A DNA stretch of 64,000 nucleotides, from assembly GCA_001820685.1 (NCBI GenBank), contig MHQP01000018.1:13881-77880 (forward strand), given 5' to 3'. Source of the DNA: Candidatus Sungbacteria bacterium RIFCSPLOWO2_01_FULL_47_32. Lineage in GTDB: Bacteria; Patescibacteriota; Minisyncoccia; Sungbacterales; GWA2-42-14. The notes beneath the pieces were generated by a model. The model ran no database searches. It was not told where the DNA came from and saw only the letters and a list, made by a program, of their open reading frames with translations. Shown here one piece after another: positions 367 to 25,828 of the stretch; position 1 is the stretch's first letter; the number at the start of each line of letters is the position of its first letter. The position numbers were made by a program, and so were the translations under genes.

Positions 367-1671
367 ATGCATACCGTTGATTTAGACCTGAATATGGACC
401 GCCTTACCAAAGTTGAGGGTTCTGCCTCGCTTGAAGTAAAAATACGTAACGGCAAGGCGGAGAAGGTTCACTTTAAAATAACCGAATATAAAAGATTTTT
501 TACCCAGGCGATGCAAGGGAAGCCGCTTGTTGCGATTCCGCAGCTGCTTGCCCGCATCTGTGGCACGTGTTCGAACGCTCATCTCCTGGCAAGTATTGAG
601 GCGTGCGAAAGTGCTCTCGGGATAGAACCGACCGAGCAGACGAATATTCTTCGGACTCTTACAATGTACGGCTTGAATATCCGGGACCACGCTCTGCACC
701 TGTACCTTTTTTCAATGCCTGATATCGTCGGAAAAGACGCGTTTCTTGACTTTGACGAGAACAATGAATTCGAGCACCAGATGCTCCATGACGGGTTTCA
801 AATAAAAGCCGCGGGCAATTTTCTTGCGACTCTAGTTGCCGGACGCAGTGTTCACGCGGTTTATCCCGTTGTCGGCGGATTCATTCATTTTCCGGAAAAA
901 GCCGGGGTAGGAGAGGCGATTCAAAAACTTGAAGCGGCTCGCCCTGCCGTACTCCGCCTGATCAATGTTTTTAAAGATGCTCCCTTCCATTTTGACCGGA
1001 AAACAAATTTTATGGCGCTTGTTCCGATGGGGGGCATGTACGGGTTTATTCATGGATGCATCAACACCGGCAAGGGCGAATGCGTCCCAAAAGAGAATTT
1101 TGACGGCTTTTTGGAACGGGTCGTTGTTCCATATTCGCAGGCATCCGGCTACAAGCATAAAGAAGAATCCTATATGGTTGGAGCGCTCGCGCGCATGAAT
1201 TTGGCAAAAAATTTGCTACATCCCTTGACCAAAGAAGCGCTTGGCGCGACGCTTGACCTTTTTCCGTCAACGGATATTTTCCGAAATAACCTTGCGCAGG
1301 CGATAGAAATTCTTCACGCGCTTGACCGTTCCATTGAGTTATTGCGGGTGAACAATTTTGTTCCCGAGTCGGTAATTAAAAAGCCGCCGAGAGAGTCGGT
1401 CGGGGTTGGGGTAATCGAGGCTCCGAGGGGAACGCTCTATCATAAAATTTTTCTTGGAAGCGACGGGGTCGTCAAAAAAGGAGAAATCGTAGTGCCCACC
1501 GGGCAGAACCAAGTAAATATTGAGGAAGATATATATCATTTAGTCAACGAGCTCCTCCCCGATGCGCCGAAAGAAAAGATGCAATTCGAGATAGAAAAAC
1601 TTATCCGGGCATACGACCCATGCATGAGCTGTGCCACACATTTCCTCAAGGTTGACTGGAACGAAGCGTAG
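367..1671 (+). CDS. NiFe hydrogenase large (alpha) subunit
   Basis: N-terminal RICGTC (L1 motif) and C-terminal DPCMSCATH (L2 motif) are the Ni-binding cysteine pairs. 434 aa. Ends with a 9-aa extension after the His, consistent with processing by a maturation protease. Confidence 0.9.
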   Translation: MHTVDLDLNMDRLTKVEGSASLEVKIRNGKAEKVHFKITEYKRFFTQAMQGKPLVAIPQLLARICGTCSNAHLLASIEACESALGIEPTEQTNILRTLTMYGLNIRDHALHLYLFSMPDIVGKDAFLDFDENNEFEHQMLHDGFQIKAAGNFLATLVAGRSVHAVYPVVGGFIHFPEKAGVGEAIQKLEAARPAVLRLINVFKDAPFHFDRKTNFMALVPMGGMYGFIHGCINTGKGECVPKENFDGFLERVVVPYSQASGYKHKEESYMVGALARMNLAKNLLHPLTKEALGATLDLFPSTDIFRNNLAQAIEILHALDRSIELLRVNNFVPESVIKKPPRESVGVGVIEAPRGTLYHKIFLGSDGVVKKGEIVVPTGQNQVNIEEDIYHLVNELLPDAPKEKMQFEIEKLIRAYDPCMSCATHFLKVDWNEA

Positions 1672-2049: not shown

Positions 2050-2841
2050 CTAAAGATTTTTTATGCAGTTGGCAAGCGCGATATGATGAAGCGTATACCG
2101 TTTTAGGGTTGCTGCCTGTTTTTTTGAGATTGCTTCGCAGGGAACTCCCCAATGAATCGTAATGATATCGCCGCTTTTTAGCTGTTCAATATCAGGCGGA
2201 GAAGAAATGTCCCGGTGAATTCTTCTGGTCTCTGGGTTTCCAAGCGCCAGTCTGCCGTTTTCATATATGAGCGGTTCGGTTTTGACCGCAAGGAACGGCC
2301 CGTCGGCGTTTAAAACCGTGCCCCAGCTTATGCGGCACGAATCCATACTCTCAAGAGTGTGGGGAATATCAAGATTCCCCGTTCGCTTCCAGATGCTTAA
2401 TACGTGGAACGAATGGTGCGGAAGCGCGCCTTTTTTTATTATGTCTTCAACCAGCTCAAATGACTGGCGCCCTACTTTCTTTTTTACATCAAGGTTATCC
2501 AGGAGATGCCGGTAAAGCCTTTTTTCTCCCGCATTCTTCAATAACTCATTTCCTATCCAATAGGCATCAACAACCCTGGGGTTGAACGGATCCCGTATGC
2601 TATTCGCGTCAGCAATAAGTTTGAGATACGGATAAAGAGTGCGAAAAGCCTGCAATAGTTTTTCGAGCCCCGGGTCCTCTGCGCCATTTTGCATGTACGC
2701 CAAAATTTCCCGATTCGCATCGGGACCGCAGTAGTGAAGGCGGTTCGGGCCAAAGGCATATTTGCTACAGCGAAGCAGACCGTCCGCTTCAGGCCGAGAA
2801 AACCAGCCCTTTTTTAATGAATTTGCTATAGTAGTATTCAA
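2050..2841 (-). CDS. hypothetical Cys-containing protein, co-oriented immediately upstream of the maturation protease; start uncertain
   Basis: 263-codon ORF with balanced composition (CSKYAFGPNRLHYCGPD, HWGVPCEAI). No family recognised. The ORF-track start at 2841 is a TTG and overlaps the EamA gene by 53 nt, so the real start may be further in. Confidence 0.5.
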   Translation of the reverse strand: MNTTIANSLKKGWFSRPEADGLLRCSKYAFGPNRLHYCGPDANREILAYMQNGAEDPGLEKLLQAFRTLYPYLKLIADANSIRDPFNPRVVDAYWIGNELLKNAGEKRLYRHLLDNLDVKKKVGRQSFELVEDIIKKGALPHHSFHVLSIWKRTGNLDIPHTLESMDSCRISWGTVLNADGPFLAVKTEPLIYENGRLALGNPETRRIHRDISSPPDIEQLKSGDIITIHWGVPCEAISKKQAATLKRYTLHHIALANCIKNL

Positions 2842-3718
2842 TTTGTTTTGTTATCAAAAGTATTCCTGCAAGCATCAGCAAAATAGACGGAACTACTTTT
2901 AATGGGAATGAGTGATTTACTATAACTCCGTCAAGAACGGCAGTAATAGGAAAGGCAAGCGCAAGGATTGAAGTTACTACCGTTGCCGGAGCTTTCTCGA
3001 GTGCCGAGTACCAGCTGAACACATATCCGAAAAGAACGATCCCGACGACAATCGCCAGCATTCCCTGATAAAGTGATGAGGGGATGATAGTTGATATTTC
3101 TCCCGTAGAGAGAAGCCAGACGACCAAAAAGAAAGAGCCAAAAAACATTCGCGCCCACGCGACGGTAAGCGCTGATACGCTACTAAGAATTTTTTTCGCG
3201 ATTATGCTTTCTATGGCCCAAAGAATTGTCGCTCCAAGCGCCATGGCCGCTCCTCTGCCGAAGGACCATGTTGCGGGGGCTCCGGAAATATAGATTGCAT
3301 AGAGCATTACAAAAAGTGCCAAAATTTGAACGATGCCAAGCCGCTCCTTAAGAAACGGATATGCTAAAATCGCGACCCAGATAAAAAGAGTCTTATGAAT
3401 AAAGGCGGCCTCGGTTGCGGATACCATAGTTAGCGATTTAAAAAATAAAAGAAACGAAACTGACCCGCCGATGCCCGCGATCACTAGGAGCTTGAACCAC
3501 TCTCCTCGTGAGAGACGGCGCAGTTCACAAACCCTCCCTAACAGCAGGAGAAGTGCCGTAAGAAAGACTGCCGCCGTTAGATTTTTTGCGGTTGTGTAGG
3601 CGGATGAATTTGCCCAAAGCCCGACCCCGAACTTATTGATAAATACGGAAAAACCGCTTATGAGCGCGGCAATAAATGCCAGTTTTATTCCGCTAAGGTA
3701 TGTTTTGTTTGCTATCAT
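2789..3718 (-). CDS. EamA/DMT-superfamily membrane transporter
   Basis: 309 aa, about 10 hydrophobic helices in two halves; typical EamA composition. Confidence 0.7.
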   Translation of the reverse strand: MIANKTYLSGIKLAFIAALISGFSVFINKFGVGLWANSSAYTTAKNLTAAVFLTALLLLLGRVCELRRLSRGEWFKLLVIAGIGGSVSFLLFFKSLTMVSATEAAFIHKTLFIWVAILAYPFLKERLGIVQILALFVMLYAIYISGAPATWSFGRGAAMALGATILWAIESIIAKKILSSVSALTVAWARMFFGSFFLVVWLLSTGEISTIIPSSLYQGMLAIVVGIVLFGYVFSWYSALEKAPATVVTSILALAFPITAVLDGVIVNHSFPLKVVPSILLMLAGILLITKQIEYYYSKFIKKGLVFSA

Positions 3719-3944
3719 GCTTTCCTGTTACGTAGTACGTTGCTATTGTATCACTTTACAGAAAATAACCCAATAGTATAGCGACGGCATTAAGGTGAGT
3801 TTTTTGCCGTCGGAAACCGATGGGCGTCTTGGTATTCCACATTTATATTATTTTTTGATATACTTATACATATGTAATACATCAGCTTTTAGACGCATGA
3901 TAAAACAAGGAGTAAAGAAAATATGTTATCGGTAACATAAAAAT

Positions 3945-4217
3945 ATGAAGAAAATGTTAATTATTGCGGCTGTCGTTATTGCTCTCGCGGCCACCGCAGG
4001 GTTTTTCTTAACAAGAAAACCCGCAGGCTTAACAGGGCAAAATAACGCCGGAACGCCGGGAGGAGTATCTACCGAAACAGCAGTCGAACCAGCATCCGGT
4101 TTGGGCGGGCAACTATATAGCGAAATCCAGCAGAATCCCGGAACGAAAATTCCCGATACCAATCCGATCAAGAACGACTTAAATCCGTATAATAACGGTT
4201 ACGTTAATCCATTCTAA
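3945..4217 (+). CDS. small membrane-anchored protein with NP-motif tail (partner of the Cys-repeat protein)
   Basis: N-terminal TM helix MKKMLIIAAVVIALAATAGFFL, low-complexity linker, C-terminal NPGTKIPDTNPIKNDLNPYNNGYVNPF. Ends 9 nt before the Cys-repeat gene. Confidence 0.5.
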   Translation: MKKMLIIAAVVIALAATAGFFLTRKPAGLTGQNNAGTPGGVSTETAVEPASGLGGQLYSEIQQNPGTKIPDTNPIKNDLNPYNNGYVNPF

Positions 4218-4225
4218 ATACAAAC

Positions 4226-6373
4226 ATGAAAAAACAACCTTTTTTAATTTTTGGATTACTTGCCGGAATGGGTTTCATGGGAAGTCTATTGTTTGCTCTT
4301 GTGTCGTTTGCGAGCCCAATTCCTATGGTTCAGGCGGAAGTAGAGCGAATTGCCGTGGGTTCGTCATGGACGACAACTGTGCAGCCGATGAGCGCGTTGA
4401 GACTGGTTGCGCGTATTACCGGAGACGTACCGGCCGGCGGGAACTATGCAATGGAAGTATACGTGAACGGCAAGCCCGTGATCTCATCTCTTTTGAATAA
4501 AGGCGCGAGTTTTACGTTTAAAGACGGCCGGACCTTTCCTTACCGGTCGGAGAACGGCTGGATGCTGTTTTACAGCCAGAATTTTTCCGTGAATAATACC
4601 GCAGCGAGCGGGGGGTATCAGGTACTCACTGATCCCGGACAGGCTTATTTATACGAATGGAACATATCATCTCTTGTCGGCGGCGCGTCGAGCATGAAAC
4701 TGGAAATTAAAAATAACGGCAAAACAGCCGGAAGGCAGATCCTCGTTCAGGTCTTGAGCAGATATCCGATCGCCGAATTGGGAAATTGCGGCGACGAAAA
4801 TGCTTGCAGGGATTATTGCGGAAAACAGGCAAATTATGCCGCATGCTCGGATTACGGCGCGAAAAATAACATAATTTCTCCGGAAGACGCAGAGAAGGCC
4901 AAGAAGTTCGCCGATGTTTTGAACGGAGCGGGTCCCGGCGGATGCAAAGACGAGGCTTCCTGCCGAAGTTATTGCGAGGGCGTTGCTCACTTGGAAGAAT
5001 GTATTTCTTTCGCTCAAAAACATAATTTTGCAAGCGGGGACCAGTTGGCTGAAGCGCAAAAAGTTTTGAGCGCGCTCAAAAAAGGCGCGACACTTCCGGG
5101 CGGCTGCACGGATAAAAATTCCTGTGAATCATATTGCAAGGACTCGGCCCATGTCGAAGAATGCCTTTCGTTCGCAAAAAAAGCCGGTTTTATCTCCGAC
5201 CAAGAGGCCGCTGAAGCGGAAAAGGTCCTGCCATTCATAAAAAGCGGGCAGACACCGGGTGGATGCACTACCAAAGCGGATTGCCAGAAATTCTGCGATG
5301 ATTCAAGCAACAACACGGAATGCGTCAATTTTGCCGAGAAGGCGGGATTCATGAGCAAGGAAGACGCAACTATGGCGAGGATTACCGGCGGAAAAGGCCC
5401 GGGCGGGTGCAAGTCAAAGGATTCCTGCGAAACATACTGCAACGCAAAAACGCACCAGCAAGAATGTTTTGACTTTGCCCAGAAATATAATCTAATTCCA
5501 CCCGATAAGCTGAAAGAGATGAGGGAGGGCATGGGCCGGCTTCGTTCCGGTTTGGACCAGATGCCGCAGGAAGCGATTTCGTGTCTTAAGGACAATCTTG
5601 GGCAGGATATTGTCACGAAAATTCAGGACGGGTCTTTTACTCCCGGACCGCAAACCGGGGATACCATCAAGGGCTGTTTCGATAAGGTCATGCCCCAACT
5701 TCAAGCCAAATTAAAGCAGGGATTGGATCAGGCGACACCGGCCGCATTGCAGTGCTTGCAAAACGGCCTCGGTGAAGACGGGCTTCAAAAAATTAAAAAT
5801 GGCGAAGCGCCAACCCCGGAAAACGGAGATGTTCTCAAAAAATGCTTCGGAGCAATGAAATCGGAAGGGATGAACAAGCTTAAGAACGGTTTAAGTAAGA
5901 TGCCACCGGAAGTGAGATCTTGCATAACTGAAAAACTCGGCGCGGACACAGTGCAAAAAATACAAAGCGGCGAGGATGTGAATATCGGCCCCGAAATCGG
6001 ATCGGCCATGCAGGAATGTGCGAAGGCAGGTGTTGCGGCGATGCAGCAGAAAATGGATGAAGGATTAAAAAGCGCCCCGCCGGAAATCAAAAGTTGCGTA
6101 GAATCAAAACTTGGCAGCATGAGCGCAAAGATGCAAAGCGGAGAACTAAGCGGCGAGGCGGACGTTCAGAAATTGATACAAGAATGCGTTTCTAACTTTA
6201 AGCCGGCAGGAGGCATGCCGCCGCCAGGAGCCGGCGGAGAAACCGAAGGTAACCCGCCCGCGGGATTTGCGCCAACTCCGGAGATTTGCTCTCAATTCCG
6301 GTCCGTTCCTTCGTGTTCCTATGTACCCGCCGGCACAGCCCAAGACATGTGCAAAAAGTGCAAAACGGAATAG
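4226..6373 (+). CDS. secreted modular cysteine-repeat protein of unknown family
   Basis: 715 aa. Signal/TM at the N-terminus, an ~185-aa N-terminal domain, then five ~50-aa 4-Cys modules (GPGGC-x5-C-x3-C-x8-C-x2-FA-x-K-x-NF) and four ~40-aa 2-Cys modules (P-x-E-x2-SC-x3-LG-x-D-x3-KIQ-x-G...C). Cys-rich C-terminus. Confidence 0.8.
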   Translation: MKKQPFLIFGLLAGMGFMGSLLFALVSFASPIPMVQAEVERIAVGSSWTTTVQPMSALRLVARITGDVPAGGNYAMEVYVNGKPVISSLLNKGASFTFKDGRTFPYRSENGWMLFYSQNFSVNNTAASGGYQVLTDPGQAYLYEWNISSLVGGASSMKLEIKNNGKTAGRQILVQVLSRYPIAELGNCGDENACRDYCGKQANYAACSDYGAKNNIISPEDAEKAKKFADVLNGAGPGGCKDEASCRSYCEGVAHLEECISFAQKHNFASGDQLAEAQKVLSALKKGATLPGGCTDKNSCESYCKDSAHVEECLSFAKKAGFISDQEAAEAEKVLPFIKSGQTPGGCTTKADCQKFCDDSSNNTECVNFAEKAGFMSKEDATMARITGGKGPGGCKSKDSCETYCNAKTHQQECFDFAQKYNLIPPDKLKEMREGMGRLRSGLDQMPQEAISCLKDNLGQDIVTKIQDGSFTPGPQTGDTIKGCFDKVMPQLQAKLKQGLDQATPAALQCLQNGLGEDGLQKIKNGEAPTPENGDVLKKCFGAMKSEGMNKLKNGLSKMPPEVRSCITEKLGADTVQKIQSGEDVNIGPEIGSAMQECAKAGVAAMQQKMDEGLKSAPPEIKSCVESKLGSMSAKMQSGELSGEADVQKLIQECVSNFKPAGGMPPPGAGGETEGNPPAGFAPTPEICSQFRSVPSCSYVPAGTAQDMCKKCKTE
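4787..5498 (+). repeat. five tandem 4-Cys protein modules (coding repeats) inside the 4226-6373 CDS
   Basis: aa 188-425: CGDENACRDYC...C; GGCKDEASCRSYCEGVAHLEECISFAQKHNF; GGCTDKNSCESYCKDSAHVEECLSFAKKAGF; GGCTTKADCQKFCDDSSNNTECVNFAEKAGF; GGCKSKDSCETYCNAKTHQQECFDFAQKYNL. Confidence 0.75.
5561..6188 (+). repeat. four tandem 2-Cys protein modules (coding repeats) inside the 4226-6373 CDS
   Basis: MPQEAISCLKDNLGQDIVTKIQDG...C; ATPAALQCLQNGLGEDGLQKIKNG...C; MPPEVRSCITEKLGADTVQKIQSG...C; APPEIKSCVESKLGSMSAKMQSG...C. Confidence 0.7.
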
Positions 6374-6411: not shown

Positions 6412-6444
6412 ACAAAACCCGGCAATCGTGCGCCGGGTTTTGAG
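6412..6444 (+). terminator. rho-independent terminator after the Cys-repeat gene
   Basis: cccggc-aatcgtgc-gccggg stem-loop (6418-6437) followed by TTTTGAG. Confidence 0.6.
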
Positions 6445-6477: not shown

Positions 6478-6565
6478 CCCGCCATAATTCGCCGTGAAGA
6501 GGTTTCCCGGCGTGCTTTTTTTGCGAAAAAATGATATGGTTTTTGTGTATTCGCGTTTTACAATT

Positions 6566-8080
6566 ATGCATAACATTCCAATTCGAAATTTAACCATAGC
6601 TGATTTTATTGGCATGAGCGGACCAAAAACCCGCCTGTATCTTGAAAAGTCAGCTGGTTCAAAAATCAATCGCGTCGCCTCATCCCTTCAAAAGCTTATC
6701 GGCGCCGGTAAAATTATTTACGGCGTAAATACCGGGGTGGGGGACCTGTGCGATGTTACTCTTCAGGGAAAGGATTTGTACCGCCTTCAAGAAAATATTA
6801 TTTTAAGCCACGCGTGCGGTTCCTCTCCATATCTCGAAGAACGCGTAAGCCGCGGGGCTTTATTTTTGATTATTAACTCGCGCTCTAAGGGTTTTTCCGG
6901 AGTTACGGCGGAACTTATTCGAAAACTCGTTATTCTTTTTAATAACAATGTTTCCCCTCTGCTTCCCGTCAGGGGGTCTTTGGGAGCGAGCGGCGATCTT
7001 ATCCCAATGGCTCATTTAGGGCTTTTGCTTCTTGGACAAGGTAGCGCCATGATGAACGGCAAAATTGTTCCGACAAAAAAAATATTGCACCGTCTTCGCA
7101 TTTCCAATCACGTGTTACAGCCCAAGGAAGCCTTGAGCCTGATAAACGGAACCGATGTTACGACCGCGCAGGCCGCGTTTACCCTGGAAAAGGCTAAAAA
7201 ACTTTTATTTTTGTCAGCGCGTCTGACAGCAGTCATCTTTGAGGTTCTGGGCGCTTCAAAGAAAAGTCTTGACTCGGACTTGCATTCCCTGAAGCCGCAT
7301 GTGGGGCAAGTAGCCATTGCTCGGCTTCTCAGAAAGTTTCTTCATGGAAGCAGACGTTGCGATCGGCCGAATAAGAAAATTCAGGCTTCGTATGTAATTC
7401 GCTGCGCGCCGCAGATTGACGGAGCTATTTGGGAGCAAATTGAAAAAGCAAGGGACGTTGCGGAGGTTGAATTGAATTCCGTAACCGATAACCCGCTATT
7501 TTTCCCATCCGGAGCAGGAGTGAGAGTAGCCTCCGGAGGAAATTTTCATGCCCAGAATTTGGCTTTTTCGCTCGATTCCGCCGGAATCGCTCTTGCCGCA
7601 TTCGGAAAAGTTGTTGAGAGAAGAATTGAAAGATTGCTGAACTCCTCGCTATCCGGCTTGCCGCCGTTTCTTGCGCATGACTTCGGATTGAATTCCGGCC
7701 TCATGATTCCGCAGTATCTTGTTGCCGCGCTTGTTGCCGAAAATTTGGTTTTAGCTCATCCGGCAAGCATTCAATCTCTGCCGGTATCTGCCAACCAGGA
7801 AGATTTCGTATCCATGGCCATGACTGCTGCAACAAAAGCTGAAAAAATTCTTGAAAATTGTGAAAAAATATTGGCCGTGGAGATTTTAACAGCTATTCAG
7901 GCGATGGATATGGCGAAAGATGCCAATGGACGCGTTTTTTCCGACTTTAGTCCTGCAGCAAAAACTCTTCACCGGAAAACGAGGGCTATTGTTTCGGAAC
8001 TCAAAAACGACAGGTGGCTGAGCAAAGATATCGAAGTGTTAACGGAATCAATTCAAAACGGCTATTTTCATTATGACTAA
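6566..8080 (+). CDS. hutH: histidine ammonia-lyase
   Basis: GSLGASGDL MIO-forming Ala-Ser-Gly motif and GVNTGVG. Start chosen at the Met (6566) giving about 504 aa; the ORF extends to 6494. Confidence 0.9.
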   Translation: MHNIPIRNLTIADFIGMSGPKTRLYLEKSAGSKINRVASSLQKLIGAGKIIYGVNTGVGDLCDVTLQGKDLYRLQENIILSHACGSSPYLEERVSRGALFLIINSRSKGFSGVTAELIRKLVILFNNNVSPLLPVRGSLGASGDLIPMAHLGLLLLGQGSAMMNGKIVPTKKILHRLRISNHVLQPKEALSLINGTDVTTAQAAFTLEKAKKLLFLSARLTAVIFEVLGASKKSLDSDLHSLKPHVGQVAIARLLRKFLHGSRRCDRPNKKIQASYVIRCAPQIDGAIWEQIEKARDVAEVELNSVTDNPLFFPSGAGVRVASGGNFHAQNLAFSLDSAGIALAAFGKVVERRIERLLNSSLSGLPPFLAHDFGLNSGLMIPQYLVAALVAENLVLAHPASIQSLPVSANQEDFVSMAMTAATKAEKILENCEKILAVEILTAIQAMDMAKDANGRVFSDFSPAAKTLHRKTRAIVSELKNDRWLSKDIEVLTESIQNGYFHYD

Positions 8081-9041
8081 ATTATTGAAGAAATCCACCG
8101 CGGCCATTTATGAGAAGCAGTCTGATTTGGACGACCTGCGCCTTAAAAATATTGTTGCGAATTGGGATGGGAGAACAAAAATTGATATCGGAATAATCGG
8201 AATACCTTTTGATTATGGTGTGCAACTTTCAGGAGGACGGCCGGGGGCCGCACGAGCGCCTGACACCATCCGCAGCCAGCTTAAGCGATACGGGACGGCA
8301 TGCAATAGTGAAAAGAAGGCGGACCTGTCTAAATTAAAAATTGCCGACCTCGGAAATATGAAAGTTTTTTTCCGGGACAGTTTGCGGACCTATGCGGCTG
8401 TTATCGGCGTAATGGCAAAAGCTTATGATGGATTGGTTGACACGATTATCGCGCTTGGAGGAGGAAACGATATTACATATGCAACGGTTTCGGCACTCCA
8501 AAGGAGCAGAAAGCAAACTCTCGGAGGAATGAGTATTGATGCGCATTTTGACGTACGAAGTACGCGGGGCGGAAAGATCACAAGCGGAACCCCCTATCGC
8601 CGGCTGATTGAGGATAAGATTCTACCCGGAAATAATTTTTGGGAAGCAGGAATTCAGGGACAGGTCAATTCAGTTATTCATGAGCGCTGGCTTAAAAAGC
8701 AGGGTGCGAAAATAGTTTCTCTCTCCGAGATAAGAGAAAAAGGGGTTATTGCCGAATTTAAAAGCTTTGAAAAGGCAACTCGGCGCTGTAAGATGATTTT
8801 CGTCAGCATCGATATTGATTCTGTCGCTCAAGCATTCGCCCCGGGCTCAAGCGCCCCCAGCCCCGACGGCCTTTTTCCGGAAGACATTCTGCAGTTCGCG
8901 TATTTAGCCGGACTTAATCAAAAAGTAAAACTTTTTGAAGTTGTTGAAGTTAATCCGCGTTATGATGTTGATAATAGAACGAGCAGGCTGGCTACAAATA
9001 TTGTTATCCAATTTTTAACAGGCCGCTCACTAATAAAATAA
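8073..9041 (+). CDS. hutG: formimidoylglutamase (arginase/ureohydrolase family)
   Basis: Ureohydrolase motifs (SIDAHFD, SIDIDSV, GGGND-like). Sits between hutH and hutU; ATG overlaps the hutH stop. Confidence 0.75.
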
Positions 9042-9043
9042 CT

Positions 9044-10780
9044 ATGAATTCTTGTTCATGTGATATTAAAGAGGAATTGGAAAAATACGGGCGGCCGATG
9101 CACATGGCTGAACGACCCGCCTTTCCCATCAAAGCTAGCACGGGGCCCGAAAAAGAATGCAAAACCTGGGACACAGAGGCGGCACTGCGAATGCTCTATA
9201 ATAATCTCGACCCGGATGTGGCGCTGAAACCGGAAGAGCTTATTGTTTACGGAGGTGCCGGGCGCGCGGCGCGTAACTGGCATGAATTCAATAAGATAGT
9301 TTCAGCGCTCAAAGACCTTCGCGAAGACGAAACTCTATGCATTCAATCCGGAAAACCGGTTTATGTCGCTCCGACCCATAAAGACGCTCCGCGGGTAATT
9401 CTTGCTAATTCCAATATTGTGCCAAGGTGGGGTACACAGGAAATTTTCAATGAATACGACCGCTTGGGCCTTATGATGTACGGGCAGATGACCGCCGGTT
9501 CCTGGATTTACATCGGGACACAGGGAATTTTGCAGGGGACATACGAAACCTTTAGGGCGTGCGCTAAAACCAACTTTGGCCAGGATTCGCTGGCGGGAAA
9601 ATTTGTTTTGTCCGCCGGCATGGGATCAATGTCCGGAGCGCAGCCTTTGGCGGTAACCATGAATGAGGGGGTTTTACTTGATGTGGAAGTAAGAAAGGAG
9701 CAGATTGAAAAAAAAGTGCGCGAAGGATACTGCGATATGTTGTCGGAAAATTTGGACGAAGCGCTGCGGCTTGTAAAGGAAGCGGTTGATATGCGTATTC
9801 CTCGTTCCATCGGGCTTGTCGGGAACGCGGCGGAAGTTCATACGGAATTGTTACAGCGGGGGATAATTCCGGATATTGTAACCGACCAAACGCCTGCGCA
9901 TGACATTTTAAGCTATGTTCCGACCGGAGACCTTAACGAGCTTGACCTGTTACGAGTAAAGAACCCGAAGGAATATGAGCGAAGAGCCCGCGAATCAGTC
10001 GTTATGCATGTTTCGGCAATGCTTGAGATGCAAAAGCGGGGAGCGATTGTTTTTGATTACGGAAATAATCTTAGAATTCAGGCGGAGGAAGGGGGGCTTG
10101 TCGTAAAAAACGAACAAGGAGAATTTTTGTATCCCGGTTTTGTACCTGCCTATATCCGGCCTCTTTTTTGCGAAGGAAAAGGTCCGTTTCGCTGGGCATT
10201 TTTGTCCGGCAAGACGGAGGACCAGCGCCTTGTTGATGATCTGCTTTTAAAGACGTTCCCGGAAAACATCGGGCTGAAGAGGTGGGTCGAGAAAGTTCAG
10301 AAAAAAGTTCCGGTTATCGGATTGCCAACGCGAATTTGCTGGCTTGGATACGGAGAACGGGCAAAGTTCGGTTTAGCGTTAAACGACCTTATCAGCTCGG
10401 GCAGGGTTTCGGCTCCGGTTGTTATCGGACGCGACCACCTTGATTCCGGGTCGGTGGCTAGTCCGTATCGCGAAACCGAGGGAATGAAGGACGGGTCTGA
10501 CGCGATTGCTGACTGGCCCCTGCTTAATTTTGCGCTTAACACCGCCAACGGCGCTTCTTGGGTCTCTTTTCATCACGGCGGAGGCGTTGGGATAGGAAAT
10601 GCATTGCATGCAGGTATGGTGATTGTGGCGGACGGAACCAAAGAAAAAACTAAGCGTCTTGAGCGGGTTTTGACGGTTGACCCGGGAATAGGAGTTGCGC
10701 GCCACGCGGACAGCGGTGAAGAAAGAGCTATTGAAACCGCAAAAGAAAAAAATATTAAAATACCAGGCCTGACATGCTGA
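9044..10780 (+). CDS. hutU: urocanate hydratase
   Basis: 578 aa with [10 protein letters not shown] (NAD-binding) and typical urocanase length. The N-terminal 19 aa are uncertain (alternative Met at 9101). Confidence 0.9.
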
Positions 10781-12039
10781 TCATCAAAAACGCACATGAG
10801 CTTGTAACATGCCGCTCATTAGAAAGCGGTCCGAACGCCGGCAAAAATTTCAGCACCTGTTCCGTTATTAAAAATGGGGCTCTTGTTGTTGACGGAGAAA
10901 AAATTGTTGCCGTCGGAAAAACAGAAAATATTCTGGCACGGTTTAAGAAAAAATGGGCTAGCCGTATTTTTGACGCTTCTGGAAAAATTATTCTGCCGGG
11001 CTTTATTGACAGCCATACCCATTTGGTTTTTGCCGGCTCCAGAGCCGAGGAATATCGATTGAAGCTTAAAGGACAAAGCTACAAATCACTTCATAAAAAA
11101 AAAGGCGGAATTCATTTTACGGTGGGAGAAACCAGGAGGGCGAGCGAAGATGAACTTTTTTTTCAGGCGAAGGATACTCTTGAGCGAATGTTCCGTTTGG
11201 GAACGACTACTGTTGAGATAAAAAGCGGCTATGGCCTGACGCCGGAGGACGAGCTTAAAATTTTGCGGGTTATTAAGCGGTTGAAAAAGACGGCCAAACA
11301 AGATATTGTTGCCACATTTTTAGGAGCGCATACAGTGCCGTTAGAATATCAAAATAATCGTTCTGCCTATCTGAAATTAATTATTGAAAAAATGCTTCCG
11401 GTGGTGTGGGCGAAGGACCTGGCTGAATACTGCGATGTTTTTTGCGACCCGCTCGGTTTTACCGCCGGAGAGACAACGGCAATTTTTTCTGAAGCAAGAA
11501 GATTGGGATTTAAGTTGCGCATTCATGCCGAACAAACCGCTCATTTCGGCGGTGCTGCCGTAGCGGCGCGATATAAGGCGGCAAGTGCTGACCACTGCGA
11601 TTTTTTGAACGATTCCGATATCGGATACTTAAAAAAGAGCCGAATACCAGTCGTCCTTCTTCCCGGGGTGCTTTTGCATCTTATGGAGTGGAAAAAAATT
11701 CCGTATTTTCAGGAAACAGTAAAAAAAATAAAAAAAGCCGATGTGGCTTTAGCTTTGGCCACCGATTATAATCCTGGTAGTTCTCCTGTTATATCCATGA
11801 AGCTTGTCGCGGATCTTGCCTTGCGTTTTTTCCGCATGGATTATCAGGAATGCTTGAATGCGGTAACTATTAACGCCGCGTATGCCTTAAACCGCGCGTC
11901 AGAAGTGGGGAGCATTGAACCCGGCAAGCAGGCCGATATTCTTATAGTTGACGCTTTGAGCATGAAGGACTATTTTCACGGGCCCGGTGACGGCAAGATT
12001 GATTATGTAATAAAAAAGGGTTTGATGAATAAAATATAG
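10774..12039 (+). CDS. hutI: imidazolonepropionase
   Basis: Amidohydrolase with [16 protein letters not shown]; about 420 aa; overlaps the hutU stop by 7 nt. Confidence 0.9.
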
Positions 12040-18125: not shown

Positions 18126-19328
18126 ATGGCAAAAAGGAAACCTTTTTTGAAGAATAATTTTAAGAAACCAGTGAAAGTAAAGCCGAAAAGAATGCCAAAG
18201 GCTAGTGCGATACGAGCGCAAAGGAAAAAGATAAAACAAAAGAAAATTTTTCAAAAAAAAAGATTCGCTGGAGTAAGAACGCCCCGCGACGTTATACTTA
18301 TTAAAAAAGATCATGACGGACGTCTCGTAAAGCCGGGTGAAAACCCGATCCTTTCTCCCCGGCGCGAACACGATTGGGAAGCTTATCAGACATTCAACCC
18401 CGCCGCTATATTTGAGGGGGGAAAAGTGCAATTGCTCTATCGTGCGTTGGGAAGCGACGGAGTATCCCGCCTAGGACACGCCGAAAGCACGGATGGTATC
18501 ACTATTGACTTTCGTTCGGACAAACCGGTTTTTATTTGTGGACGACGCCCCGAAAAAGATAGCGCGGTTTCCTATGAGGCAATGCAGTATATTTCCGGGG
18601 GAGGATGCGGAGGATGCGAAGACCCGCGCCTTACTGTGATAGGCGATACGGTATATATGGTATATGTATCATTTGACGGATGGAGTCCGCCGCGGATCGC
18701 ACTTACTTCAATTAAGCTTGACGATTTTCTTGCTAAACGCTGGAAGTGGGCAGGTTCAAAAATAATCTCTCCTCCAGACGTTATCGACAAAAGCGGATGT
18801 TTGTTTCCCGAGATTATCCGGGGGAAGTATGTTATCTTGCACAGGATATTTCCCAATATTCTCCTTGACTATGTTGACGATCTTGAATTCAAGCACGGAA
18901 CTCATCTGAAAGGAGAATATACTATTCCTGTTCGTAAAAATAAATGGGACAGCCGAAAAATCGGCGCCGGAGCACCTCCTCTCAAGACAAAATACGGCTG
19001 GCTTCTTATTTATTATGCCGTGGATAATAAAGACGCCTCTCAATATAAAATAGGAGCGATGCTCCTTGACCTCACGCATCCGGAACGCGTCATTGCCCGC
19101 TCGGATGCTCCAATACTGGAACCGGCCGAATGGTATGAGAACGCCGGACATAAGGCCGGTGTTGCGTACCCATGCGGAGCAGTCGTGATGAACGGAACGC
19201 TTTTTGTGTACTATGGCGGAGCCGATACGGTTGTCTGCGTCGGAACGGTAAACCTCGATACGTTCATCGAGGCTCTTATGAAAAGCAAAACTCCAAAACT
19301 CAAAAAACACAAGTCAAAAATGAAATGA
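18126..19328 (+). CDS. GH130-like glycosidase/phosphorylase with a ~60-aa polybasic N-terminal tail
   Basis: ENPILSP...FNPAAI...LLYRA...GCEDPRLT motifs of GH130/DUF377 five-bladed propeller enzymes. The N-terminus MAKRKPFLKNNFKKPVKVKPKRMPKASAIRAQRKKIKQKKIFQKKRF is about 40 percent Lys/Arg. Confidence 0.75.
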   Translation: MAKRKPFLKNNFKKPVKVKPKRMPKASAIRAQRKKIKQKKIFQKKRFAGVRTPRDVILIKKDHDGRLVKPGENPILSPRREHDWEAYQTFNPAAIFEGGKVQLLYRALGSDGVSRLGHAESTDGITIDFRSDKPVFICGRRPEKDSAVSYEAMQYISGGGCGGCEDPRLTVIGDTVYMVYVSFDGWSPPRIALTSIKLDDFLAKRWKWAGSKIISPPDVIDKSGCLFPEIIRGKYVILHRIFPNILLDYVDDLEFKHGTHLKGEYTIPVRKNKWDSRKIGAGAPPLKTKYGWLLIYYAVDNKDASQYKIGAMLLDLTHPERVIARSDAPILEPAEWYENAGHKAGVAYPCGAVVMNGTLFVYYGGADTVVCVGTVNLDTFIEALMKSKTPKLKKHKSKMK

Positions 19329-21238
19329 GCATAGCTCGCCGCTCCGATGAAAACCCGATATTGCTTCCCAACAAAGACCATCCGTGGGAAGCGGAGGCAG
19401 TTTTCAACTGCTGTCCGGTTCGAAAAGGCCACACCATCAATCTTTTATACCGTGCGGTTTCTTCTCTCCATTTTCATGCCGAGGCGGGAACGCAACTTCG
19501 CGTGTCGTCCATCGGGCTTGCCGAAAGCAAGGACGGCATACATTTCAAAAAACGAAGACAATTTATTTTACCGGAAGAAGATTGGGACCGCTACGGATGC
19601 GAAGACCCCCGCGTTACAAAGCTCGGGGATAAATATTATATTTTTTATACGGCGCTCTCTCGGTTCCCACTTTCTCCGGAAGGCATACGCGTAGGAGTTG
19701 CGATAACTAAAGATTTCAAAAAGATCGAAAAACATCCGGTAACGCCGTTTAATTCGAAGGCAATGGCGCTCTTTCCGGAACGCATTGGCGGAAAGTACTG
19801 GGCGATACTTACGGCAAATACCGATATGCCTCCGGCGCGCGTTGCGCTCGCCTCTTTCGAACGGGAAGAAGACATATGGTCGGCGATGCATTGGGCGGAT
19901 TGGTACGCCTCGCTTGATTCTCATGTCCTTCCGCTTCAGCGTTCTCACGAGGACCATATCGAGGTCGGCTCGCCCCCCGTCAAAACAAAGCACGGGTGGC
20001 TTGTCATTTATTCCTACATTCGGAATTATTTTTCTCCGAATAAGATATTCGGCATTGAGGCGGTTTTGCTCGACCTTCAAAATCCCATGCGTATCATCGG
20101 GCGAACGAGTGCCCCCATCATGGTACCGGAAGAAGAGTACGAGAGGTACGGGGAGATACCAAACATCGTTTTTCCGTCGGGGGTTCGCTTTGAAAAAGGT
20201 AGAGTTCATATTTACTATGGGGCCGCAGATTCAACATGCGCCGTCGCGTCGTTCAAACTGACCGAGCTTTTGCGTGCAATGTTTCCTCCAGAGCGCAAGG
20301 AGGCGCATTTTAAACGACCTCCGGAAAACCCTATATTGAAGCCTATTCCGGAACACGCCTGGGAGGCAAAAGCAGTTTTCAATCCGGCGGCGGTCGCGAT
20401 TGGTGGGAAAATACATATTGTCTATCGTGCGATGTCCGAAGACAACACGTCCGTTTTTGGACACGCCATGACCGTTGACGGCGTACACATCGCAGAACGC
20501 GACGTGGAACCGATATACCTTCCGCGCGAAGAATTCGAGCGCAAGCTTCAGCCGGGAAATTCCGGCTGTGAGGACCCGCGCCTCACAAAAATAGACAGAA
20601 AAATTTTTATGCTCTATACAGCTTTTGACGCAAAAAACCCTCCGCGGGTCGCTCTTACGTCCATTTCAGCCGACGATTTTGAGAAAAGGAAATGGAACTG
20701 GTCGCGTCCAATTCTCATATCTCCTCCCGGGTTAGATGACAAGGATGCATGCATTTTTCCGGTGAAGTTCAATCGAAAATATATTATATTCCACCGTATC
20801 GGACGAAGTGTCGACCTCGCGTTAGTTGATGACCTTGAGTTTAAAAAAGAACGGCCGTGGCTGGAGGAGCATAAGTGGCTCATGCCCCGAAGAGGTTCCT
20901 GGGACGGGGAGAAGGTCGGCATTGCGGCCCCTCCGGTCAAAACAAAGCACGGATGGGTGCTCTTATACCACGGCGTTTCGGATATCGACCACTGGTATCG
21001 TGTTGGGGCATTGTTGTTAGACAAGCGGAACCCGACAAAAATTCTTGCAAGAACCCTTCACCCGATATTTGAGCCCGAGATGCCGTACGAAAAAACGGGG
21101 CAAGTTGCTCATGTTGTTTTTCCGTGCGGGAACGTCGTGCGCAAAGAGAGCATATACATATACTACGGCGGAGGGGATTCGGTGGTGGGAGTCGCATCTA
21201 TTGAAATACGTGCTCTTATGAAAGCGCTTGGAAAGTAA
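19325..21238 (+). CDS. protein with two tandem GH130-like modules
   Basis: Start at the ATG overlapping the upstream TGA (ATGA). Module 1 carries ENPILLP...FNCCPV...LLYRAV...GCEDPRVT; module 2 (from about 20290) carries ENPILKP...FNPAAV...IVYRAM...GCEDPRLT. Confidence 0.75.
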   Translation: MSIARRSDENPILLPNKDHPWEAEAVFNCCPVRKGHTINLLYRAVSSLHFHAEAGTQLRVSSIGLAESKDGIHFKKRRQFILPEEDWDRYGCEDPRVTKLGDKYYIFYTALSRFPLSPEGIRVGVAITKDFKKIEKHPVTPFNSKAMALFPERIGGKYWAILTANTDMPPARVALASFEREEDIWSAMHWADWYASLDSHVLPLQRSHEDHIEVGSPPVKTKHGWLVIYSYIRNYFSPNKIFGIEAVLLDLQNPMRIIGRTSAPIMVPEEEYERYGEIPNIVFPSGVRFEKGRVHIYYGAADSTCAVASFKLTELLRAMFPPERKEAHFKRPPENPILKPIPEHAWEAKAVFNPAAVAIGGKIHIVYRAMSEDNTSVFGHAMTVDGVHIAERDVEPIYLPREEFERKLQPGNSGCEDPRLTKIDRKIFMLYTAFDAKNPPRVALTSISADDFEKRKWNWSRPILISPPGLDDKDACIFPVKFNRKYIIFHRIGRSVDLALVDDLEFKKERPWLEEHKWLMPRRGSWDGEKVGIAAPPVKTKHGWVLLYHGVSDIDHWYRVGALLLDKRNPTKILARTLHPIFEPEMPYEKTGQVAHVVFPCGNVVRKESIYIYYGGGDSVVGVASIEIRALMKALGK

Positions 21239-21896: not shown

Positions 21897-21925
21897 TAAA
21901 AAGGATCCCCGAAAGGGGATTTTTA
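21897..21925. terminator. bidirectional rho-independent terminator between convergent genes
   Basis: AAAA-ggatcccc-gaaa-ggggat-TTTT (21903-21920) with A/T runs on both sides. Confidence 0.6.
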
Positions 21926-22393
21926 TATTACAGTTCTCATGGCAAGAGATAGTATAACGCCATTGAGCAGAAGTCCTATCGCGACAGCCGTCCAACCGCT
22001 CCAGAGAAGTGTCGTGATCCAAGCAGCGACATTAAGGCCGTGAGAACCAAATCCCGCTCCGACAAGGCCTGCGATGAGCGAGTGCGATTTACTGATAGGG
22101 TAACCGTTCCGCGCGGCAATAAGTCCCCAGAGGATAAGCCCAATCATGGCGGCCGCAATGGTTTTGAGATTGATATGCGAAACATTAACGAACCCTTTGC
22201 TGATGGTTGCGGCAACCGCAGTGCCGCTGGTGGCACCCGCGACGTTCATGACGACTGCAATCATAATTGCGATACGCGGAGGAAGAACGGACGTTGAGAC
22301 AACCGTTGCGATCGCGTTCGGCGCATCTGTCCAGCCGTTGATAAATTCAGCCATTAGGACAAGGAAGAGGACGAAGAGAAGTCCTGCTTCCAT
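21923..22393 (-). pseudogene. inorganic phosphate transporter PiT family, N-terminal half only (likely gene remnant)
   Basis: EFINGWTDAPNAIATVVSTSVLPP matches the PiT N-terminal signature (F.NG.HD.ANAIAT), but the ORF is only 156 aa against ~330 for PiT proteins. It ends directly at the terminator. Confidence 0.45.
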
Positions 22394-25000: not shown

Positions 25001-25333
25001 ATGGAACAGCAACAAATGCCGGCGCGCATGATTTACGCGCTTTTTGGAGCCACTATCCTTGTTTCGCTTATTAGCGGGTACGTATACGCGCTGACGGAGA
25101 AAAGTTCCGGATATGAAGACTGATACTCGGCAGGGGTGGAAGCGGAAAGAAACCAAGCGACGCGTGCAATCGCATGCGATGAAAAAAGACAAGCATCTCT
25201 GGACGCCAAAAAAGCCACTGACGCGGTAAACCCATTCGAGAGCACCCAAACGAATCCGCTCGGAGCGGGATACCAGAATCCCTTGATAAAGCGGCGGTTA
25301 ACCTGTTCAAGTAGTTCAGTGACGATGGGTTAA
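25001..25333 (+). pseudogene. decayed paralog of the small TM/NP-motif protein (in-frame TGA)
   Basis: MEQQQMPARMIYALFGATILVSLISGYVYALTEKSSGYED, then TGA at 25121-25123, then the same frame continues ...KKATDAVNPFESTQTNPLGAGYQNPLIKRR... This matches the TM plus NP-motif architecture of 3945-4217. Confidence 0.35.
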
Positions 25334-25446
25334 AATTGGTTTTTCTCTATTTACATATATCGACATATTTCGTAACAATTTTTATTTTTCGTTTTTTACA
25401 TTCGCTCTTGGACTCGCCGCTGTTTTAGGCGGTCTCGCATTCACGA

Positions 25447-25776
25447 ATGCCGCCCCCCTCACCTATTGCCATACCATTTCCGATCGCAGAACTTAGAAAT
25501 TGCGCCGACAAACAAAGTTGTTCGGCGTTTTGTGATGACCTTGTAAACTGTCAAGCCTGCTATGATTTTGCAAAAAGCCATAATCTTTTGAAAGAAGGCG
25601 AACGCGCTGCAGACCTTCCAAAAATCAGACCTGGAGGGTGCTCTTCGATTTCGACCTGCAAAGCGTATTGTGAAAACGCCGCGAATCGCGCCATTCCCAA
25701 AAGTTCGATTTCCGGAGAACAGCCCGGCATCTTCGGGCTTCTCCTGTGGCCGTTGATACAGGTTCTTCGGCAATAG
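25447..25776 (+). CDS. truncated paralog of the cysteine-repeat protein (two 4-Cys modules), probably frameshifted at its 5' end
   Basis: C-x5-C-x3-C...C-x2-C-YDFAKSHNL and GGC-x5-C-x3-C modules homologous to the 4226-6373 modules. A signal-peptide-like segment (FALGLAAVLGGLAFTNA, 25401-25451) lies in another frame, joined through a C6 tract at 25453-25458. Confidence 0.45.
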   Translation: MPPPSPIAIPFPIAELRNCADKQSCSAFCDDLVNCQACYDFAKSHNLLKEGERAADLPKIRPGGCSSISTCKAYCENAANRAIPKSSISGEQPGIFGLLLWPLIQVLRQ

Positions 25777-25828
25777 TTTTTTAAGTCATACAGTCGCCCT
25801 TGGCGGCTGTTTTTGTTATAATTCAAGC

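What the first reader, a model, noticed from the sequence alone, without database searches (positions are those of the whole stretch)
3945..6373. Two-gene cassette (small TM protein with NP-motif tail plus Cys-repeat protein) that recurs as a decayed copy at 25001-25776
Locus 1 is a 90-aa protein (TM helix, low-complexity linker, C-terminal NPxTKIPDTNPIKNDLNPYNNGYVNPF) sitting 9 nt upstream of the Cys-repeat gene. Locus 2 has the same architecture in the same order and orientation. A 40-aa TM ORF (MEQQQMPARMIYALFGATILVSLISGYVYALTEKSSGYED) ends in TGA at 25121-25123. The same frame then continues into an NP-motif tail (AVNPFESTQTNPLGAGYQNPLIKRR). About 110 nt further on is a 109-aa Cys-repeat paralog with two 4-Cys modules. 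Its probable signal peptide (FALGLAAVLGGLAFTNA, 25401-25451) lies in a different frame and is joined through a C6 homopolymer at 25453-25458. TGA recoding is unlikely because TGA terminates ordinary genes here. Copy 2 therefore looks like a pseudogenised duplicate, or it contains two assembly errors.
Basis: partly seen in the sequence, partly recalled or inferred. Interest (0 to 1): 0.6.

Follow-up and report, generated by a model that had tools for sequence, protein, structure and literature searches.

The report
Conserved two-gene cassette plus dead copy
A small membrane protein and a secreted cysteine-rich repeat protein form an unannotated gene pair found throughout Parcubacteria (CPR bacteria); this groundwater genome has one intact pair and one real, broken-down second pair, which is ordinary gene decay.

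Summary
At 3945-6373 a 90-aa single-helix protein with a C-terminal Asn-Pro tail sits 8 nt upstream of a 715-aa signal-peptide protein with 32 cysteines. At 25001-25776 the same two parts recur in the same order, broken.

The pair is a family-wide operon. In 80 Patescibacteria genome loci, 80 of 83 Cys-repeat gene segments have such a small gene directly upstream. The other three are cut by a contig end or belong to a split gene. The median gap is 4 nt, and small-protein and large-protein subtypes co-vary. Neither protein matches Pfam, NCBIfam or any PDB sequence.

Locus 2 is a true pseudogene remnant, not an assembly error: ten assemblies are 100% identical across it. TGA ends 5 of 47 large ORFs, so it is a stop codon here.

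The lesions are:
- a nonsense TGA in the small gene, a lost motif and a 15-codon tail extension;
- no start codon for the signal peptide;
- a frameshift at the C6 tract;
- loss of about 85% of the large gene.

Locus 2 is not a recent copy of locus 1. It belongs to a different paralog lineage, with intact counterparts at the same position (upstream of EamA and a glycosidase-like gene) in two other genomes.

Function is inferred only. The likeliest reading is a membrane tether plus a disulfide-rich surface protein.

The parts
3836..3864 (+). Promoter-like site upstream of cassette 1 (weak consensus match only)
   Evidence: TCCACA-17-TATACT with a TG extension. This is a pattern match, not evidence of function.
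3945..4217 (+). Cassette 1 small gene, 90 aa. It has an N-terminal hydrophobic helix, a low-complexity linker, and a conserved tail GLGGQLYSEIQQNPGTKIPDTNPIKNDLNPYNNGYVNPF at the C-terminus.
   Evidence: The family HMM gives E = 6e-23. An 83-aa homologue (P0002) is 65-67% identical. 62 cluster representatives of 80-110 aa match at E <= 1e-3.
4226..6373 (+). Cassette 1 large gene, 715 aa, 32 Cys. Its parts are:
- signal peptide, aa 1 to about 38;
- beta-sandwich, aa 40-176 (nt 4343-4753);
- five 4-Cys helical modules C-x5-C-x3-C-x8-C, aa 180-443 (nt 4763-5554);
- four 2-Cys helical repeats, aa 447-656 (nt 5564-6193);
- Pro/Gly-rich linker;
- C-terminal 4-Cys element, aa 685-715.
6413..6442 (+). 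Terminator-like hairpin after cassette 1
   Evidence: 11-bp stem with 7 GC pairs. This is a pattern match only.
25001..25123 (+). Cassette 2 small-gene remnant, 5' part: a 40-codon ORF with the hydrophobic helix, ended by an in-frame TGA at 25121-25123
   Evidence: It is identical in ten assemblies. Gene callers annotate a 40-aa product.
25124..25333 (+). Cassette 2 small-gene remnant, 3' part, in the same frame. The NP tail AVNPFESTQTNPLGAGYQNPL lies at 25223-25285. Fifteen extra codons follow before TAA at 25331-25333, and the LGGxIYE motif is missing.
   Evidence: The family HMM gives E = 8e-5 for this segment alone. BLASTP against the L095 small protein gives E = 2e-5.
25401..25451 (+). 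Cassette 2 large-gene remnant: signal-peptide-like FALGLAAVLGGLAFTNA, in a frame that has no ATG, GTG or TTG between the preceding stop (25320-25322) and this stretch
   Evidence: The junction FTNAAP...PIAELxNC matches intact homologues such as L026 and L029 (FAFTNAAPANITYPISELGN).
25453..25458 (+). C6 tract at which the signal-peptide frame and the Cys-module frame are out of register. Removing one C restores ...TNAAPSPIAIPFPIAELRNC...
   Evidence: The reconstructed protein aligns collinearly with L095 residues 33-113 (48% identity, E = 1e-21). The tract has the same length in ten assemblies.
25447..25776 (+). 109-aa ORF holding the first Cys module and about three quarters of the second. Homology to the family ends near 25686, and the rest runs on to the next stop.
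   Evidence: Only family-profile positions 40-119 of 595 are matched. A search of 5.8 billion proteins found only this sequence itself.
25790..25810 (+). Terminator-like hairpin plus a T-run just after the remnant and before the EamA gene (25829-26770)
   Evidence: 9-bp stem with 6 GC pairs, followed by TTTTTGTT. This is a pattern match only.

Best explanation
**What the cassette is.** Locus 1 is an intact member of a two-gene operon conserved across Parcubacteria/Paceibacteria (Patescibacteria, CPR). Neither gene belongs to an annotated family.

- Gene 1 encodes an 80-110-aa single-pass membrane protein. Its only conserved part is the C-terminal tail, ...LGGxIYE...NP..kvP(D/E)xNP(F/L)....NP...aYxNPF.
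- Gene 2 is translationally coupled to gene 1. It encodes a Sec-secreted, mostly alpha-helical protein built from tandem 4-Cys and 2-Cys modules. These are presumably disulfide-bonded.
- In the window's copy, gene 2 begins with a carbohydrate-binding-module-like beta-sandwich.

**Most likely mechanism (inferred, not shown).** The small protein sits N-in/C-out. Its Asn-Pro tail is a short linear docking peptide that holds the large protein at the cell surface. The large protein has no membrane anchor of its own. It would act as a stalk-like binding protein for glycans or a host surface.

**What locus 2 is (shown).** It is the dead remnant of a second, paralogous cassette of the short form, in which the signal peptide leads directly into the Cys modules. 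That cassette ancestrally sat upstream of the EamA and glycosidase-like gene pair. It has been inactivated by a nonsense TGA, motif loss, a tail extension, start-codon loss, a 1-nt frameshift at C6, and deletion of about 85% of the large gene. These lesions are real features of the genome.
For: **Operon conservation**
- In 80 Patescibacteria genome loci, 80 of 83 large-family segments have a small family member directly upstream on the same strand.
- The three exceptions are cut by a contig start (L040, L046) or are the second piece of a split gene (L019). No small gene occurs alone.
- The intergenic gap has a median of 4 nt, and many pairs overlap.
- Subtypes co-vary. Fifteen NPLR-ending small proteins pair with large proteins of about 960 aa and 6-10 modules. 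Fifty-one NPF-ending ones pair with proteins of about 630 aa and mostly 5 modules.

**Family size and annotation**
- The large protein has more than 1000 homologues.
- The small family has 62 cluster representatives, all 80-110 aa with the tail at the C-terminus.
- Neither has a Pfam, NCBIfam or PDB sequence match.

**Structure of the large protein**
- The sequence shows a signal peptide and an even count of 32 Cys.
- The AlphaFold2 model has pLDDT 84.4, with a beta-sandwich followed by helical modules.

**Pseudogene status of locus 2**
- The lesions are read directly from the sequence.
- Only profile positions 40-119 of 595 remain.
- Ten independent assemblies are identical.
- TGA is a normal stop here.
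- No protein of this shape exists elsewhere among 5.8 billion proteins.

**Separate paralog lineage at an ancestral position**
- The fragment is 44-48% identical to proteins in other genomes but 34% identical to locus 1.
- L095 carries an intact small gene (91 aa, also starting MEQ) and an intact 602-aa gene. These are followed by GH1, then EamA (34% identity, E = 2e-54) and a glycosidase-like gene (43%, E = 2e-91).
- L047 has an intact cassette followed by EamA (37%) and the glycosidase-like gene (47%).
Against: **The tether mechanism is not tested.**
- No complex could be modelled.
- No natural fusion of the two proteins was found among 120 homologues.
- The number of NP motifs correlates only weakly with the number of Cys modules (Spearman rho = 0.26, p = 0.04).

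**Topology and fold are unsettled.**
- Both flanks of the small protein's helix carry about two basic residues. The positive-inside rule therefore does not fix the orientation, and the tail could be cytoplasmic.
- The helical Cys modules match no solved fold. Foldseek against PDB gave nothing at E <= 1e-3.
- The CBM-like domain is absent from the short subfamily, so it cannot be the core function.

**Caveats on locus 2.**
- The syntenic comparators are distant (34-47% identity in the flanking genes). No close relative could be examined.
- The 40-aa ORF keeps a GGGGG Shine-Dalgarno-like run and a promoter-like site, so it may still be expressed.
Confidence: 0.8

Rival explanations
1. Locus 2 is intact in the organism, and the TGA and the C6 frameshift are sequencing or assembly errors.
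For: Homopolymers are classic error sites. A single-base change at each site would restore longer reading frames.
Against: Ten assemblies from different samples, centres and assemblers are 100% identical over all 971 nt. Repairing both sites would still leave three defects: no start codon for the signal peptide, a tail extension, and a large gene truncated at profile position 119 of 595.
Confidence: 0.02
2. Locus 2 is expressed through recoding. This could be TGA read-through, selenocysteine insertion or an alternative genetic code, together with programmed frameshifting or phase variation at the C6 tract.
For: The frame stays open for 69 codons after the TGA and still carries a recognisable NP tail. 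Some CPR lineages (Gracilibacteria, Absconditabacteria) read TGA as Gly; this is established knowledge.
Against: - TGA ends 5 of 47 large ORFs at sensible gene boundaries.
- No stable hairpin follows the TGA (z = -0.95), and the window holds no tRNA-Sec.
- C6 is short for a contingency tract and shows no length variation in ten assemblies.
- The downstream product would still lack a start codon and 85% of the protein.
Confidence: 0.03
3. The remnants have taken on new roles as independent small genes: a 40-aa membrane micro-protein and a 109-aa protein.
For: - Gene callers annotate both ORFs.
- A Shine-Dalgarno-like GGGGG and a promoter-like site precede ATG 25001, and a terminator-like hairpin follows 25776.
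- The sequence is fixed in the population.
Against: - The 109-aa ORF starts inside the former signal peptide. Its Cys modules would therefore stay in the cytoplasm, and its last 30 residues are non-homologous run-on.
- Nothing with this shape exists elsewhere in 5.8 billion proteins.
- Population identity also fits a recent neutral loss.
Confidence: 0.1
4. On cassette function: the small protein is not a tether. It is a secreted or processed peptide, such as a signal, a RiPP-like precursor or a chaperone-like assembly factor. The large protein would be its receptor, carrier or client.
For: - Only the C-terminal roughly 40 residues are conserved, as in Phr-type signalling peptides, where the C-terminus is the active part (established knowledge).
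- Topology is unresolved.
- An M50-type protease gene lies downstream in 14 of 80 loci.
Against: - No modifying enzyme, exporter or peptidase is consistently linked. The M50 gene lies 40-2100 nt away within one clade, next to rpsL and RecG, which looks like plain synteny.
- The helix usually ends in an aromatic belt followed by Lys, with no Ala-x-Ala cleavage site.
- Strict 1:1 coupling with overlapping or 4-nt junctions suggests stoichiometric partners.
Confidence: 0.15

Closest known systems
Anchor-plus-passenger surface systems of monoderm bacteria, for example scaffoldin or anchoring proteins that hold secreted partners through short docking modules (cohesin-dockerin)
   Same: In both, a secreted modular repeat protein without its own anchor is encoded next to a membrane- or wall-bound partner. 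Both have repeated modules and a carbohydrate-binding-module-like domain.
   Different: There is no sequence or fold relationship. The proposed dock here is a roughly 40-residue Asn-Pro peptide on an 80-110-aa single-helix protein. The interaction itself is only inferred.
CHCH-type twin Cx9C helical hairpins; the nearest PDB sequence hit was NDUFB7, E = 0.45
   Same: Both are small alpha-helical units with four cysteines, which presumably form two disulfides that pin the helices together.
   Different: The spacing here is C-x5-C-x3-C-x8-C rather than twin Cx9C. The modules are tandemly repeated 4-10 times in a bacterial Sec-secreted protein. The match is not significant.
Pfam PF25052 AtDEF-like (defensin-like family)
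   Same: A few homologues (P0018, P0096, P0099) touch this model at about its cut-off, 25-28 bits.
   Different: The window protein does not match even at E <= 1. The matches cover about 30 residues of cysteine pattern only. The model here is helical, not a cysteine-stabilised alpha-beta defensin fold.
Carbohydrate-binding modules CBM36, CBM35 and CBM6, and the BcsB carbohydrate-binding domain
   Different: Sequence identity is only 7-12% and no ligand residues were checked. The domain is absent from the short subfamily to which locus 2 belonged.
Ordinary bacterial pseudogenes (nonsense, frameshift and deletion remnants)
   Same: Locus 2 shows the classic combination of lesions. It has no intact equivalent of its own shape anywhere.
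   Different: Nothing unusual, except that it lies in a small, streamlined CPR genome.

Membership tests
Patescibacterial Cys-repeat secreted protein family (unnamed; homologues P0003-P0122) | Significant match to the family profile over most of its length | tested here: met
   Locus 1 matches at E = 4.5e-249 over profile positions 28-590 of 595. Locus 2 matches only positions 40-119 (E = 2e-20), so it is a fragment and not a full member.
Patescibacterial Cys-repeat secreted protein family | N-terminal signal peptide followed by at least four tandem C-x5-C-x3-C-x8-C modules with invariant cysteines | tested here: met
   Locus 1 has five modules, and all module cysteines fall in invariant or nearly invariant columns. 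Locus 2 does not meet this feature. Its signal peptide is out of frame and lacks a start codon, and it has one full module plus a 3-Cys partial one.
Small NP-tail membrane protein family (unnamed; 77 members from loci L013-L092, plus P0002 and P0124-P0185) | One N-terminal hydrophobic helix and the LGGxIYE...NP...NP...YxNPF tail ending 0-3 residues before the C-terminus, all in one 70-115-aa ORF | tested here: met
   The locus-1 90-aa protein matches at E = 6e-23, full length. Locus 2 does not meet this feature. Its helix and tail are separated by TGA, the LGGxIYE motif is absent, and 15 residues follow the tail.
Two-gene cassette (small gene directly upstream of the Cys-repeat gene) | Same strand, small gene first, with a gap of a few nucleotides or an overlap | tested here: met
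   Locus 1 has an 8-nt gap. Across the family, 80 of 83 segments are paired and the median gap is 4 nt. Locus 2 keeps the order and orientation, but its gap is about 70-110 nt depending on where the lost start codon lay.
Pfam PF25052 AtDEF-like | Score above the gathering threshold (25 bits) | tested here: not met
   The window proteins give no hit at E <= 1. Only some homologues score 25-28 bits.
CHCH (twin Cx9C) domain | Two Cx9C motifs in a helix-turn-helix | tested here: not met
   The spacing is C-x5-C-x3-C-x8-C. The PDB profile search gave E = 0.45 to NDUFB7.
Alternative genetic code 25 (TGA = Gly) or genome-wide TGA recoding | TGA is not used as a terminator, and conserved genes contain in-frame TGA codons | tested here: not met
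   TGA terminates 5 of 47 large ORFs. All Pfam-annotated genes read through cleanly with code 11.
Selenoprotein gene | SECIS hairpin just 3' of the UGA, plus tRNA-Sec and SelA/SelB in the genome | tested here: not met
   No significant hairpin follows the UGA (z = -0.95), and the window holds no tRNA. The rest of the genome was not available.
Phase-variable contingency locus | The homopolymer tract varies in length between cells or populations and switches an otherwise intact ORF on and off | tested here: not met
   The C6 tract is identical in ten assemblies. The in-register version would still lack a start codon and most of the gene. Read-level variation could not be tested.
Carbohydrate-binding module (CBM6/35/36-like fold) | Beta-jelly-roll fold with a ligand or Ca2+ site | tested here: inconclusive

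The most novel reading that the evidence does not exclude
The cassette may be a previously undescribed cell-surface apparatus found across Parcubacteria. A tiny membrane protein would use an Asn-Pro peptide to dock a disulfide-rich helical stalk. That stalk is sometimes tipped by a carbohydrate-binding-like domain. Such an apparatus could mediate attachment of these ultra-small, probably episymbiotic cells to hosts or polymers. Paralogous cassettes would then be gained and lost, as at locus 2, when targets change.
Probability: 0.3. Interest if true: 0.7.

Novelty: new variant of a known kind. Interest (0 to 1): 0.42.

Why it matters
Parcubacteria are abundant, uncultivated and largely unannotated, and how they contact hosts or substrates is an open question. 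A strictly coupled gene pair with more than 1000 members and no Pfam or NCBIfam model is a concrete, testable candidate for a lineage-specific surface structure. Defining both families would also improve annotation of thousands of hypothetical proteins. The dead copy matters less. It shows ongoing paralog loss in a streamlined genome. It also shows that the short ORFs annotated at 25001-25123 and 25447-25776 in public records are pseudogene fragments.

Tried and rejected
**Searches that found little or nothing**
- Word-indexed homologue searches found only one relative of the 90-aa protein. For the reconstructed locus-2 Cys fragment they found only the sequence itself. Small-protein relatives had to be recovered from genome loci instead.
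- The metagenome scan with the EamA gene next to locus 2 returned two distant loci without any cassette. Close relatives could therefore not be checked for an intact locus 2.
- Pfam and NCBIfam gave nothing for either protein. The PF25052 flag on some homologues is a marginal cysteine-pattern match.
- The PDB sequence profile search and Foldseek against PDB gave nothing significant. The afdb50 library was unavailable.

**Ideas tested and dropped**
- Gene-neighbourhood clustering found no consistently linked third gene. M50 protease, RecG and rpsL reflect the synteny of one clade.
- A natural small-large fusion, which could have served as a stand-in for a complex model, was not found.
- The positive-inside analysis of the small protein was uninformative.
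- NP-motif number against Cys-module number correlates only weakly.
- Selenocysteine or read-through was rejected. Phase variation was rejected.
- No DsbA- or VKOR-type gene turned up among the 40 window ORFs scanned.

**Not attempted**

**Literature**
- Two searches found no description of either family. The CPR protein-family survey 10.1101/335083 mentions CAP-domain and MdbA/VKOR families but not this one.
Full report
**1. Observation**

- Locus 1 has a 90-aa ORF at 3945-4217 and a 715-aa ORF at 4226-6373, both on the + strand. They are separated by 8 nt, not 9.
- Locus 2 starts at ATG 25001. This opens a 40-codon ORF with a 22-residue hydrophobic stretch, closed by TGA at 25121-25123.
- The same frame runs on to TAA at 25331-25333 and contains AVNPFESTQTNPLGAGYQNPL at 25223-25285.
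- A 109-aa ORF lies at 25447-25776. The signal-peptide-like FALGLAAVLGGLAFTNA lies at 25401-25451 in another frame. The two meet at a C6 tract at 25453-25458.

**2. Is the resemblance real?**

For the large proteins it clearly is.
- BLASTP of the frame-corrected locus-2 fragment against the 715-aa protein gives E = 6e-15.
- A profile built from 99 homologues hits the six-frame window at only two places. These are locus 1 (E = 4.5e-249) and 25429-25773 (E = 2e-20).

For the small proteins the pairwise match is weak (E = 0.018).
- A profile built from 77 small proteins of other genomes still finds the locus-2 tail segment at E = 8e-5. It finds the read-through product at E = 9e-7.
- It finds nothing else in the window.

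**3. The cassette is a family-wide operon**

The window comes from a Rifle-aquifer groundwater Parcubacteria population. Identical contigs occur in JGI, ENA, Logan and NCBI GCA_001003045.1.
- The 715-aa protein has more than 1000 homologues. All are named hypothetical, and they come from Paceibacteria-type lineages: Azam-, Lloyd-, Lipton-, Nomura-, Jorgensen-, Kaiser-, Sung-, Niyogi-, Nealson- and Wildermuthbacteria.
- In 80 genome loci, 80 of 83 large-family segments have a small-family gene directly upstream on the same strand. The three exceptions are truncated by a contig start or are the second half of a split gene. No small gene occurs without the large gene.
- The gap has a median of 4 nt, and many pairs overlap.
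- Tandem cassettes (L038, L077) and two cassettes per genome (L014 and L074; P0018 and P0122) also occur.
- Subtypes co-vary. Small proteins ending in NPLR pair with large proteins of about 960 aa and 6-10 modules. Those ending in NPF pair with proteins of about 630 aa and mostly 5 modules.
- A two-sequence profile of the small protein finds 62 cluster representatives among 1.8 billion. All are 80-110 aa with the tail at the very C-terminus.
- Neither protein matches Pfam or NCBIfam.

**4. Anatomy of the large protein**
- The sequence has a signal peptide, five C-x5-C-x3-C-x8-C modules, four 2-Cys repeats, a Pro/Gly-rich linker and a C-terminal 4-Cys element. It has 32 Cys in all.
- The AlphaFold2 model has mean pLDDT 84.4. 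It gives a beta-sandwich at aa 40-176 and helices thereafter.
- Foldseek against PDB finds nothing at E <= 1e-3.
- The helical Cys modules have no solved counterpart. The PDB sequence search gave only E > 0.1.

**5. What locus 2 is**

*Not an error.* Ten assemblies from different samples and assemblers are 100% identical over 24859-25829.

*Not recoding.*
- TGA terminates 5 of 47 large ORFs.
- No hairpin follows the TGA, and the window contains no tRNA.

*The lesions:*
- the TGA after codon 40 of the small gene;
- loss of the LGGxIYE motif, and 15 extra codons after the tail, which ends the protein in every intact member;
- no ATG, GTG or TTG in the signal-peptide frame;
- a 1-nt frame offset at C6. 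Its repair gives ...FTNAAPSPIAIPFPIAELRNC..., matching intact homologues such as L026 and L095 (48% identity, E = 1e-21);
- loss of everything beyond profile position 119 of 595, with homology ending near 25686.

No protein of this truncated shape exists elsewhere in a 5.8-billion-protein collection.

**6. Origin of locus 2**

It is not a copy of locus 1.
- Its Cys fragment is 44-48% identical to proteins of other genomes but only 34% identical to locus 1. It aligns right after their signal peptides. It therefore belongs to the short form that lacks the beta-sandwich.
- L095 carries an intact 91-aa small gene (also starting MEQ) and a 602-aa large gene. These are followed by GH1, then EamA (34% identity to window 25829-26770, E = 2e-54) and a glycosidase-like gene (43% identity to window 26780-27778, E = 2e-91).
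- L047 has an intact cassette directly followed by the same EamA and glycosidase-like pair (37% and 47% identity).
- The window therefore keeps the ancestral position of a second cassette that has decayed.

**7. Mechanism**

Shown: strict coupling of the two genes, secretion signals, an even cysteine count, and subtype co-variation.

Inferred: the small protein is a signal-anchored tether, and its Asn-Pro tail docks the anchor-less large protein at the surface.

Caveats:
- Topology is not settled by flanking charges.
- No fusion protein was found, and no complex model could be made.
- No third gene is consistently linked.

Confidence is about 0.85 that locus 2 is a pseudogene remnant of a paralogous cassette. 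Confidence in the tether mechanism is about 0.35.

**8. Verdict**

The decayed copy is ordinary gene loss. The more interesting point is that the cassette is a large, strictly coupled, completely unannotated Parcubacteria gene pair. Two literature searches found no description of it.

Noticed in passing
window 21923-22393 (-) and 22396-22656 (-): A 156-aa ORF matches only positions 1-139 of the 350-position PHO4 phosphate-transporter profile. The 86-aa ORF upstream of it has no Pfam hit. This may be a second truncated or decayed gene in the same window.
   Followed up: partly
window 18126-19328 and 19172-21238 (+): Two GH130 (mannoside phosphorylase family) ORFs overlap by 157 nt. The first ends in TGA. 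The cause could be a mis-chosen start codon, a frameshift or a real overlap.
   Followed up: no
window 2789-3718 (-) and 25829-26770 (+): An EamA-family transporter gene flanks both cassettes. The EamA and glycosidase-like pair also follows intact cassettes in L095 and L047. It is not a general neighbour across the 80 loci.
   Followed up: partly
window 367-1671 and 6494-12039 (+): A NiFe-hydrogenase large-subunit gene lies upstream of cassette 1. A complete histidine-utilisation cluster lies directly downstream: HutH, an arginase-family enzyme, urocanase and imidazolonepropionase.
   Followed up: no
L100 (NCBI GCA_001003045.1, LCNG01000017.1) 1-530: In this assembly the PilB-like ATPase gene next to locus 2 is called as two pieces (270 aa and 147 aa). 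In the window it is one 444-aa ORF. The locus-2 DNA of this assembly is identical to the window.
   Followed up: no
window 38379-41819 (+): A 1146-aa ORF has no Pfam match at E <= 1e-3. It sits just before a peptidoglycan-synthesis cluster: MurD at 43567, FtsW at 45018 and MurG at 46145.
   Followed up: no
L033, L034, L039, L042, L043, L055, L057, L058, L064, L070, L072, L076, L078, L085: In 14 of 80 loci an M50-family (site-2-protease-like) gene lies 40-2100 nt downstream of the cassette, often followed by rpsL. RecG lies upstream in 10 loci. This looks like the synteny of one clade rather than a functional link.
   Followed up: partly
window 3923-3940 (+): A strong AAGGAG at 3909-3914 precedes a 5-codon mini-ORF (ATG TTA TCG GTA ACA TAA) that ends 4 nt before the small gene's ATG at 3945. 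The small gene itself has no obvious Shine-Dalgarno sequence.
   Followed up: no
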